Positions 13,216-16,785 of a stretch of 64,000 nucleotides of DNA are shown here, piece after piece. This DNA comes from Promethearchaeota archaeon (lineage in GTDB: Archaea; Asgardarchaeota; Lokiarchaeia; Sigyniarchaeales; SOKP01). The stretch is from positions 1-64,000 of the forward strand of contig JAHPZJ010000023.1 in NCBI GenBank assembly GCA_019058245.1. The letters are read 5' to 3'. A program made the translations under genes and the position numbers. A model generated the notes under the pieces. It searched no databases and was not told the DNA's origin. It saw nothing but the letters and a program-made list of their open reading frames with translations. The number at the start of each line of letters is the position of its first letter. Position 1 is the first letter of the stretch.

Positions 13216-13627
13216 ATGTCATACAGGATATTAGTAGTTGATGATGAACCAGAAAAGTGAAGAACTCCTTCAACTTTGATTAGACATTGTCAACTTAACT
13301 GAAAAATTCTTAAAATTAGGGGGTTTTGAGATACTTACAAGTAATAATGCCAAGGAGGCTATGAAAATCATAGAAGAAAACTATGATAATATTGATTTAA
13401 TCTTATTAGACATAATGATGCCTGGACGATCAGGTTATAGTGTTCTTGAAGAAGTTAAGAATAATGAAAAATTTAAAGATATTCTTGTCGTTTTATTTAC
13501 TGTGAAAAGTTTTAATGAGGATGTTCAAAAAGGGAAGAAATTAGGTGCTGATGCATATATCACTAAACCATTCTCAGGTAAGGAACTCCTAGAAAGATTA
13601 AAAGAAATATTAAATATAAAGAATTAA
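13216..13627 (+). CDS. CheY-like response regulator, split by a 31-nt intron (exons 13216-13252 and 13284-13627; 126 aa)
   Basis: Spliced product MSYRILVVDDEP-DIVNLTEKFLKLGGFE...LLDIMMP...FT...GADAYITKPF is a complete receiver domain. Confidence 0.88.
13253..13283 (+). other. bulge-helix-bulge mRNA intron (31 nt)
   Basis: Outer stem 13236-13246/13285-13295, central helix AACC/GATT, AGA bulges 13251-53 and 13282-84, inner hairpin; in-frame TGA and frameshift if retained. Confidence 0.85.
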
Positions 13628-14476: not shown

Positions 14477-14596
14477 TTTCGTTTTCTATATTTTCTTTTT
14501 TTTTTCATAAAGTTATTTGAATAATGGGAAATTTAGAAATTTATTATTATTAACACTAATTTTATATCCAAATAGTTCGAAATTTCCACGTATAAT

Positions 14597-15208
14597 ATGA
14601 TTACTAAAATATCATTGATTTTTTTTTGGATGGTTATGATTATCGTTTTAATACATATATTCTATAGAAAATTATCATATAAAATTGAAAGAGCAGTTAA
14701 TTTTCCTGAAATTCCTCATTGGATTTATCCATTAATAATAATTTGTATTTTTGGATATATCTATATATGCTTTTTGACAATAACTTATATTTTTAATCCT
14801 ATTTTTGCATTTAATCTTTTCTTACCAATTACAATGCTAAATATAGACCTTTTAAAAGTAATAGGAGATATTTTTGTTATAATTGGGACTATTATATTTT
14901 TAATAGCATATTTTAATCTAAATTTATTAGCAGATTTAGCAGATAAATCCAACTTATCTAAATTAAAATCAACAGGAATATATGCGATATCAAGAAATCC
15001 TATTTATCTCGGATTGCATATTATAACAATCGGATTTAGTTTAATAATTCCAACATGGATAACATTCATATGTATTATCATATTCATTATTAATTTTCAT
15101 TATAGGATTAAGTTAGAAGAAAAAGAATTAGAGGAAATATTTGGAAAGGCTTATATTGATTATCGAAGAAAAGTTTTGAGATATATTGGTCGAAGGATTA
15201 GAAGTTAA
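14597..15208 (+). CDS. isoprenylcysteine carboxyl methyltransferase (ICMT/PEMT) family
   Basis: TGIYAISRNPIYLG, EEKEL...FG..Y..Y. Confidence 0.85.
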   Translation: MITKISLIFFWMVMIIVLIHIFYRKLSYKIERAVNFPEIPHWIYPLIIICIFGYIYICFLTITYIFNPIFAFNLFLPITMLNIDLLKVIGDIFVIIGTIIFLIAYFNLNLLADLADKSNLSKLKSTGIYAISRNPIYLGLHIITIGFSLIIPTWITFICIIIFIINFHYRIKLEEKELEEIFGKAYIDYRRKVLRYIGRRIRS

Positions 15209-15390
15209 ATTTTAATTTTAGCTTAAGATTAAAGGCTCGAAAGGATATAAACTATATTTAACTTGAATAAAAACTTTCTTTTTTCGCTTTTACTTCATAA
15301 AAAATACTATTTTATAATAAACTTTTTTTGATAATAAATTATATCAATAATGATTTATTTAGGAATTTAATAATTGTTAGAAAGAGAACT

Positions 15391-16785
15391 ATGAGTATGA
15401 CTCAGATCGTTGTCATAGGAATGGGCTATAAGTTCTGAGACTTCCTCAGTATTGGTTAAGTTGGTATTCCCATGGCAGCATTACTTGCTGATGTTGATGA
15501 TTTTAATGTCACCGGAATTCAGCGAAGATCACAAAGATCAGGGTGGAAAATCGATTGGCTCAATCAAGGAAAGAATCCTTTTGAAGGAGATGAACCAGGT
15601 TTAGATGAGTTAATTTCAAGAGTTGTTAAAAATGGGAAATTTAAAGTAACTGATAAGTATAATCTTGTAAATAAAGCAGATTATATTTTAATCGATGTGC
15701 AAACCCCTGTTGATGAAAATAAAATACCTAGGTATGAATCATTAATTGAAGTTTCTCGTAAAATCTCAAAACACTTAAAAAAAGGAGTAACAATCATTAT
15801 TGAATCCACAGTAGCTCCAGGTACTACTAATAATATAGTACAAACAATGTTAGAAGAAGGTAGTGGACTTAAAAGAGGTCAAGATTTTTATCTCGTATTT
15901 TCTTTTGAACGAGTTATGCCAGGAAAATTATTGGAATATATCACTGATTTTCCTAGAGTTATTGGAGGTGGTTGTAAGGAGGCAAATGAACGAGCAAAAT
16001 TCTTATATGGAAAGGTTGTTAAGAAAGAGCTTCAAGTTACAGATACTCTTACTGCAGAACTTACCAAATGTATTGAAAATTCATATAGAGATGTTAATAT
16101 AGCATTTGCTAATGAAATGGCTTTACTATGTGAAGATTTCGACAGAAATATATACGACATTGTTGAGTTTATAAATCACAGACATGATAGGATGATGCAT
16201 TATCCCGGTAGTGGAGTAGGAGGCCATTGTCTCACAAAGGATCCCTGGTTATTATTATACGGTTATGATAAATATACAGAAAAGAAAAACAAAGAGAAAA
16301 TAAAGCTTATACCAAACTCTAGAAATTTAAATGACTATATGCCCAATCATATGGTTGAATTGATGGAGGATATATTTAGAGAAGCTCATAAATTAGTAGA
16401 TAATATAAAAATTGTTCTTTTGGGAGTTTCTTATAAAGCAGATACTGATGATACACGAAATACTCCTACAGAAAATATTGTGAAAGTATTACAAGGACGA
16501 TATCACTCTCATAATATTATCTATATTGCTCATGACCCATATGTTAATGAGAGGGATTATAGGCTTACAGAACTTACGGATGACTTTAATGAAGCTGTTG
16601 ATAATGCTGATGTTCTTATCTTTGCAACAAATCATAGTGAATATTACAATATTGATTTAGATGATTTAAAAAAAAGAGTGAGGACACCTATTATCATTGA
16701 TGGTAGAAATATCTTTAACAAAAAATTACTACTAGAAAAAGGTTTTATTTATCGAAAAGTTGGAGAAGGTCCTGGAGTACTATAA
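15391..16785 (+). CDS. UDP-sugar (ManNAc/GlcNAc/glucose) dehydrogenase, split by a 30-nt intron (exons 15391-15429 and 15460-16785; 454 aa)
   Basis: Spliced N-terminus IVVIGMGY-VGIP restores the Rossmann GxGxxG; ESTVAPGT, GVGGHCLTKD, YKADTDDTRN. Confidence 0.9.
15430..15459 (+). other. bulge-helix-bulge/BHL mRNA intron (30 nt)
   Basis: Central helix GGCT/GGTT, bulges ATA 15428-30 and AAG 15458-60, inner hairpin CTGAG-ACTTC-CTCAG; contains in-frame TGA and TAA. Confidence 0.82.

What the first reader, a model, noticed from the sequence alone, without database searches (positions are those of the whole stretch)
15391..15474. Second BHB-type intron splitting the GxGxxG motif of a nucleotide-sugar dehydrogenase
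Seen: MSMTQIVVIGMGY is separated from VGIPMAALL by 30 nt that contain in-frame TGA and TAA. The structure is helix GGCT/GGTT (wobble-rich), bulges AT|A and AA|G, inner stem AGT.CTGAG-ACTTC-CTCAG.ATT, and exon stem GGAATG/TATTCC offset by 4 nt (a relaxed BHL form). Cutting after bulge position 2 removes exactly 15430-15459 and restores GMGYVG. The remaining 1.3 kb is intact, and the track ORF lacks the NAD-binding loop, so the enzyme should work only after splicing.
Basis: partly seen in the sequence, partly recalled or inferred. Interest (0 to 1): 0.92.

Follow-up and report, generated by a model that had tools for sequence, protein, structure and literature searches.

The report
tRNA-type mini-intron in Asgard sugar dehydrogenase
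A sugar-dehydrogenase gene of a Loki-type Asgard archaeon is broken in its NAD-binding loop by a 30-base hairpin shaped like a tRNA intron; related species carry different hairpins of the same shape at the same spot, so the mRNA is very probably cut and re-joined, which the papers I could search confirm inside an archaeal coding sequence only for cbf5.

Summary
Observation confirmed. 15430-15459 is a 30-nt stop-containing insert between Tyr and Val of the GMGY|VG loop. About 70 close orthologs lack it. Nine other alleles carry a 30-31-nt insert at the same base, and one a 29-nt insert one base further. Their interiors diverge but keep a hairpin (8 of 9 pairs with compensatory changes), a 3-nt bulge and a 3-4-bp helix. 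This fold fits only at the junction that restores the protein. Exon 2 is under purifying selection (45 silent against 4 replacement changes private to this genome). The genome encodes a two-subunit EndA with the relaxed-specificity loop, and RtcB. A motif-free comparison of about 720 genes with a sister species found six clean 29-31-nt inserts, all BHB/BHL; RNase HII is interrupted in 4 of 4 genomes. Carriers are scattered on the gene tree and one shows a recombination patch, which suggests lateral spread. Verdict: EndA/RtcB-spliced mRNA intron, about 0.9. Splicing is inferred: no RNA reads were available, and this allele's BHL fold lies 2 kcal/mol above its best fold. The scan has noted this class before, in this and other Asgard genomes; I found no paper on it.

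The parts
15391..15429 (+). Exon 1 (13 codons; start at 15391 or 15397): first beta-strand and GMGY half of the NAD-binding loop
   Evidence: aligns with the N-terminus of uninterrupted orthologs
15430..15459 (+). 30-nt intron with in-frame TGA (15436-38) and TAA (15457-59)
15424..15427 (+). Central helix, exon strand (GGCT), pairing with 15454-15457
15428..15430 (+). 5' bulge AT^A; predicted cut between 15429 and 15430
   Evidence: BHB cutting rule from the literature
15431..15453 (+). Intron hairpin: 9-position stem with one U-U mismatch, 5-nt loop at 15440-44
   Evidence: 8 of 9 pairs with both-side changes across alleles
15454..15457 (+). Central helix, intron strand (GGTT)
15458..15464 (+). 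3' bulge AA^G widened to a 7-nt loop (relaxed, BHL-type side); predicted cut between 15459 and 15460
15409..15479 (+). Exon-exon stem (15409-15423 with 15465-15479) that closes the motif; stronger in intron-bearing alleles
15460..16785 (+). Exon 2 (441 codons): rest of a UDP-glucose/GDP-mannose dehydrogenase family enzyme (spliced product 454 aa)
   Evidence: dN/dS 0.04
13253..13283 (+). Companion 31-nt BHB intron in the response-regulator gene, 2.2 kb upstream

Best explanation
The 30 nt are a tRNA-type intron in a pre-mRNA. The exon flanks pair into a long stem and the insert folds into a hairpin. Between them a 4-bp helix carries a 3-nt bulge on one side and a widened loop on the other (a relaxed BHB, or BHL). 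The two-subunit EndA cuts after the second base of each bulge (15429/30 and 15459/60) and RtcB joins the exons, restoring GMGYVG in a 454-aa nucleotide-sugar dehydrogenase. Unspliced RNA stops after 15 codons. Shown: the insert, the fold conserved across alleles, selection on the gene, and presence of the enzymes. Inferred: cutting, ligation and translation of the spliced mRNA.
For: Ten same-site alleles (9 distinct) in Promethearchaeota genomes and in metagenomes, against about 70 uninterrupted close orthologs. Across 8 alleles 95.8% of cells pair and 10 pairs change on both sides; 0 of 500 shuffles reach this, and slid registers give 21-53%. RNAalifold finds the same register unaided. With both cuts at the protein-defined junction, central-helix pairs are 40/44 and inner pairs 73/77; shifted junctions give at most 32/44 and 47/77. 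In L087 the exon Gly codon changes GGC to GGG and the intron partner changes with it. Alleles of 29 and 31 nt shift the frame, and all 30-nt alleles hold a stop. Exon 2: dN/dS 0.04, with 45 silent against 4 replacement changes private to this genome. The EndA alpha subunit (C28) keeps the catalytic Tyr/His/Lys region and the loop with the K44-equivalent lysine of Aeropyrum EndA; PMC5829648 ties that loop to relaxed motifs and reports it in Asgard. A second EndA-domain gene and RtcB are present. All six clean 29-31-nt inserts found without any motif between this genome and G024 are BHB/BHL on the coding strand; the two also tested on the antisense strand do not fit there. RNase HII (one copy found per genome) is split in DEAGR|G in 4 of 4 genomes.
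Against: No spliced RNA or peptide was seen. In this allele the central helix is weak (3 G-U pairs) and the BHL fold is 2.1 kcal/mol above the best fold (pair probability 0.03; the nine other same-site alleles 0.1-0.7), so EndA would have to capture a minor conformer. Three of the nine distinct alleles (L083/L104, L087, L109) have a mismatch at the first pair of the central helix. The alleles are related, so the covariation counts are not independent.
Confidence: 0.9

Rival explanations
1. Dead gene or assembly artefact: a hairpin insertion has inactivated the gene.
For: The closest relatives (96-97% aa) lack the insert, so it could be recent here. The genome has a distant paralog (29% identity). 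I could not lay DNA reads.
Against: No other lesion; 45 silent against 4 replacement private changes. Independent assemblies carry different inserts at the same base with covarying pairs. The same type of insert sits in RNase HII in 4 of 4 genomes.
Confidence: 0.03
2. Ribosome bypass: the ribosome hops over the hairpin, as in T4 gene 60 or mitochondrial byps, and the RNA is not cut.
For: Short insert with a stop codon and a hairpin; hopping would tolerate 29-31 nt.
Against: Bypass needs a landing codon that matches the take-off codon (own knowledge). Take-off is TAT/TAC, while the last triplet of the insert is TAA, AAA, CAA or GAA. Bypass does not explain the helix and bulges placed exactly in the EndA cutting register.
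Confidence: 0.03
3. DNA-level excision: a tiny transposon-like hairpin is cut out of the DNA in part of the population.
For: The insert is an inverted repeat, its presence is patchy, and GGCTA recurs at both ends in some alleles.
Against: G-U pairs are used in the stems, which points to RNA. There is no second copy in the genome: best match 22/30, the same as shuffles. There is no exact target duplication.
Confidence: 0.02
4. No removal: stop read-through, or a shortened protein from ATG 15472.
For: In this allele the insert is a multiple of 3, and an ATG follows 12 nt after it.
Against: Two different stops; 29- and 31-nt alleles cannot be read through. Ten extra residues would sit inside the NAD-binding loop, and the short form lacks the loop.
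Confidence: 0.02

Closest known systems
cbf5 pre-mRNA intron of Desulfurococcales and Sulfolobales (Watanabe 2002; Yoshinari 2006; Yokobori 2009, PMC2738675)
   Same: Short intron in a coding sequence, often relaxed BHB ends, variable interior, hetero-oligomeric EndA.
   Different: cbf5 is one gene, with one inferred ancestral gain and a few losses. Here the host is a metabolic enzyme of an Asgard archaeon, several unrelated genes per genome carry such introns, and presence is scattered (8-9 changes on the tree) with a second site 1 nt away.
HVO_1309 5'-UTR BHB intron of Haloferax volcanii (PMC7714728)
   Same: mRNA substrate of EndA, shown in vivo and in vitro.
   Different: It lies in the UTR, does not break a reading frame, and is cut by a different EndA type.
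Non-canonical tRNA introns of Asgard archaea (PMC11291895; bioRxiv 10.64898/2026.10.13.758758)
   Same: Same phylum-level group, same motif, repeated gains with unknown route of arrival. A 31-nt hairpin intron is predicted in a tRNA-Gly of this genome.
   Different: Those papers treat tRNA genes only; the preprint has no occurrence of 'mRNA' or 'cbf5'.
Homing archaeal rRNA introns and inteins (own knowledge; PMC2738675 for the rRNA introns)
   Same: Insertion in highly conserved motifs, patchy distribution, a patch of foreign flanking sequence in one allele.
   Different: No ORF in any allele found (inserts over about 40 nt were not searched by pattern), and no LAGLIDADG match on this gene's contig in the five genomes searched.

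Membership tests
Archaeal BHB/BHL (EndA-type) intron | 4-bp central helix formed by exon and intron strands | tested here: met
   4/4 here (3 G-U); 40/44 over 11 alleles; one both-side change
Archaeal BHB/BHL (EndA-type) intron | Cut after the second base of each 3-nt bulge gives the correct mature RNA | tested here: met
   The predicted cuts coincide with the only junction that gives the ortholog sequence; other registers score far lower
Canonical hBHBh' intron | Both bulges exactly 3 nt, closed by helices on both sides | tested here: not met
   The exon-side helix is offset by 4 nt, so the 3' bulge is a 7-8-nt loop in all same-site alleles: relaxed form only
Archaeal BHB/BHL (EndA-type) intron | Host encodes an EndA able to cut relaxed motifs (two-subunit type with the L1/CSL loop lysine) and RtcB | tested here: met
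   by sequence only
Archaeal BHB/BHL (EndA-type) intron | The motif is the fold the RNA adopts | tested here: inconclusive
   The consensus fold gives it; the single-sequence fold of this allele prefers another register by 2.1 kcal/mol
Archaeal BHB/BHL (EndA-type) intron | Excision and ligation in RNA | not testable with these tools
   No RNA run could be listed
Homing intron | Encoded or linked homing endonuclease | tested here: not met
   29-31-nt inserts cannot encode one; no LAGLIDADG match on the gene's contig in five genomes; HNH and GIY-YIG families were not searched
Homing intron | Co-conversion of flanking exon sequence | tested here: inconclusive
   Clear in L083 (15 of 60 differences against 1.9% elsewhere), weak in L172, absent in this genome; one of 30 intron-less control pairs also shows a patch
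Translational bypass element | Matching take-off and landing codons | tested here: not met
   TAT/TAC against TAA, AAA, CAA or GAA
Group I / group II intron | Large catalytic RNA core | tested here: not met
   30 nt; no Rfam match at E <= 1
UDP-glucose/GDP-mannose dehydrogenase family | Three Pfam domains, N-terminal NAD-binding loop, GGHC cysteine motif | tested here: met
   the loop is complete only after removal of the insert

The most novel reading that the evidence does not exclude
Loki-type Asgard archaea use EndA/RtcB as a routine mRNA-splicing system, with ten or more coding introns per genome. These roughly 30-nt ORF-less introns are mobile: they sit in conserved motifs where the exons already form a stem, and they spread between lineages by short recombination patches, in a homing-like way without an endonuclease of their own.
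Probability: 0.5. Interest if true: 0.92.

Novelty: new variant of a known kind. Interest (0 to 1): 0.8.

Why it matters
Papers up to 2020 name only cbf5 (coding) and one Haloferax UTR as archaeal mRNA introns, and a 2023 review lists archaeal RNA insertions as mainly in rRNA and tRNA. If Asgard archaea, the closest prokaryotic relatives of eukaryotes, must splice several mRNAs, then non-spliceosomal mRNA splicing is an ordinary part of their gene expression and bears on how tightly transcription and translation are coupled. It would offer a prokaryotic parallel to RtcB-ligated XBP1 splicing (abstract), and it means Asgard gene calls are truncated or taken for pseudogenes. This gene adds a natural series of intron-plus and intron-minus alleles, some only 2-5% apart, which makes the open question of how BHB introns arrive directly testable.

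Tried and rejected
RNA evidence: no RNA holder was listed, which is no evidence either way; read laying could not be used. The exact-protein contig look-up gave nothing. De novo genome scans for relaxed BHB plus ORF rescue do not discriminate: 5805 hits, and a tighter scan gave 148 sites against 131-146 for decoy geometries. The motif alone is therefore not evidence and no genome-wide count could be made; one script timed out. No source for the insert was found elsewhere in the genome. Viral contigs: 18 pattern hits, none homologous. Of 42 metagenome pattern hits, 36 had no homologous exon 2 and were discarded. No Rfam match. The terminator-like hit on the inner hairpin is at chance level (1 against 0.5), and the promoter scan is bacterial and was not used. 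A target-site-duplication origin (palindromic central helix) fits some introns but not all, and is left open. Tocchini-Valentini 2011 PNAS is not held; from memory it may propose further crenarchaeal mRNA introns, which I could not check. Literature searches found no paper on Asgard coding introns, but subscription journals are not covered.

Full report
1. Observation. The window reads MSMTQIVVIGMGY (15391-15429), then 30 nt with in-frame TGA and TAA (15430-15459), then VGIPMAALL and an open frame to 16785. Exon 2 carries all three UDP-glucose/GDP-mannose dehydrogenase domains, starting at model position 11. The best solved relative of the uninterrupted ortholog is an NDP-N-acetylgalactosaminuronate dehydrogenase, 3G79, whose loop reads GMGYVG. 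A 4/4 central helix with 8 of 9 inner pairs occurs at 1.1e-4 per coding position and length, and at 1.5e-4 in shuffles of the insert.

2. Organism and machinery. Close orthologs come mostly from records titled Promethearchaeota (Lokiarchaeia). The genome is 76% complete and has two EndA-domain genes and RtcB. The C28 product aligns over its length with Aeropyrum EndA alpha (E 4e-35), including the N-terminal loop with the lysine that I count as the K44 equivalent. The C20 product lacks the catalytic His region and looks like the beta subunit. PMC5829648 states that this loop confers cleavage of relaxed and BHL motifs and is present in Asgard.

3. Orthologs. Of 77 related loci with the N-terminus in view, 75 are uninterrupted (7 of them non-Asgard), including the two closest at 96-97% identity. 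A gapped pattern found same-site inserts in 4 of 135 family genomes, in three genera, and in six metagenome contigs. One genome has a 29-nt insert one base further on. Lengths are 29, 30 and 31 nt, and every 30-nt allele has a stop. The interiors differ widely (7-21 matches of about 23 between distinct alleles) but keep the fold. In 8 alleles 95.8% of cells pair, 8 of 9 hairpin pairs and 1 of 4 central pairs change on both sides, no shuffle reaches this, and slid registers fall to 21-53%. RNAalifold returns the same register. The fit peaks only where the EndA rule and the protein agree. The exon side is relaxed in all same-site alleles: the outer stem starts 4-5 nt beyond the 3' cut.

4. The gene is alive. 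dN/dS against the intron-less sisters is 0.04. Changes private to this genome are 45 silent and 4 replacement; the sisters show 25:6 and 29:8. The exons of intron-bearing alleles differ in silent positions in a way that suits the fold. None of 11 uses GGA for the Gly in the central helix, against 43 of 67 plain alleles, and the exon-exon hairpin averages -17.4 against -10.7 kcal/mol (related sequences, so the p-values overstate).

5. Not a single case. I aligned about 720 orthologous ORFs between this genome and 1.08 Mb of its sister G024, using no motif. Six clean inserts of 29-31 nt appeared, three in each genome. The other gaps were low-complexity, in-frame, or paired misalignments. All six fold as BHB or BHL on the coding strand at a junction that restores the ortholog. 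In this genome they are the response regulator at 13253-13283, this gene, and a P-loop (GKG|KTT) gene on C22. About 0.4% of shared genes thus carry a genome-specific intron; ten or more per genome is an extrapolation, and shared introns come on top. De novo scans could not give a count.

6. History. On the exon-2 tree the ten intron-bearing rows need 9 changes (shuffled mean 9.6). For the nine same-site rows, a single origin needs about 25 losses against 8 changes. L083 differs from its intron-less sister at 15 of 60 positions around the intron but at 1.9% further on (p 1e-9), and its nearest flanks belong to other intron-bearing lineages. That fits transfer of the intron with a short patch of exon. 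This genome's allele shows no such patch, one of 30 control pairs shows one too, and counts on a tree cannot tell gain from loss. I put lateral spread at about even odds. No endonuclease is encoded in the inserts, and no LAGLIDADG match lies on the gene's contig in five genomes.

7. Mechanism. Most likely (0.9) the pre-mRNA folds into exon stem, relaxed BHB and intron hairpin; EndA cuts at 15429/30 and 15459/60; RtcB ligates; a 454-aa enzyme is made. The weak point is that this allele's BHL fold is 2.1 kcal/mol above a competing register, so splicing may be slow, and no RNA data were available. Pseudogene, ribosome bypass, DNA excision and read-through each fail a direct test (see rivals).

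8. Comparison and novelty. It works like the cbf5 intron and meets the sequence-testable features of a relaxed EndA-type intron, though not of the canonical hBHBh' form. In print I found cbf5 and one Haloferax UTR intron, and Asgard introns in tRNA genes only. The scan's own notes report the class in this and many other Asgard genomes; these are leads, and I tested two of them. Verdict: a new variant of a known kind, a recurrent and possibly mobile coding mini-intron class in Asgard archaea. Interest 0.8.

Noticed in passing
window 13253-13283 (+): 31-nt BHB intron in a response-regulator gene; absent from the G024 ortholog.
   Followed up: yes
G000 C22:46679-46708 (+): 30-nt BHL-type insert with an in-frame stop in the GKG|KTT P-loop of a gene resembling cob(I)alamin adenosyltransferase CobA (name from memory of the motif); absent in G024.
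   Followed up: partly
L223 (G000 C25, near 92012), L220-L222: RNase HII is split in DEAGR|G by a 29-30-nt BHB intron in four of four genomes with a match.
   Followed up: yes
G024 C7, C15 and C20 (loci): Three BHB inserts of 29-31 nt present in G024 and absent here: one in a gene resembling methylmalonyl-CoA mutase (SGHG|TPE), one near an MHNWG motif, one near a GFHVTR motif.
   Followed up: partly
L172 / L224 (AMARA_1S record): 29-nt intron one base downstream of the common site, with its own 4/4 central helix; its sister L173 (about 5% apart) has none. Independent gain or intron sliding.
   Followed up: partly
L055 and L185 (G020): G020 holds two copies of this dehydrogenase, one with and one without the intron.
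   Followed up: no
G000 whole genome: ARAGORN finds only 19 tRNA genes, several with implausible calls, which fits many non-canonical tRNA introns.
   Followed up: no
   Followed up: partly
L134 against L187: Two intron-less alleles also differ in a dense patch around the intron site (14 of 60 against 7%): possibly a past intron loss or a recombination hotspot.
   Followed up: no
window 14597-15208 (+): The PEMT-like methyltransferase gene just upstream lies in a gap in the alignment with G024 (14546-15451), so this stretch differs between the two genomes.
   Followed up: no
L139 and several JBHL records: Record titles (an actinobacterium; Odin-, Thor-, Hod-, Hermodarchaeota) disagree with the position of these genes among Lokiarchaeia orthologs: probably mislabelled or misbinned.
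   Followed up: no
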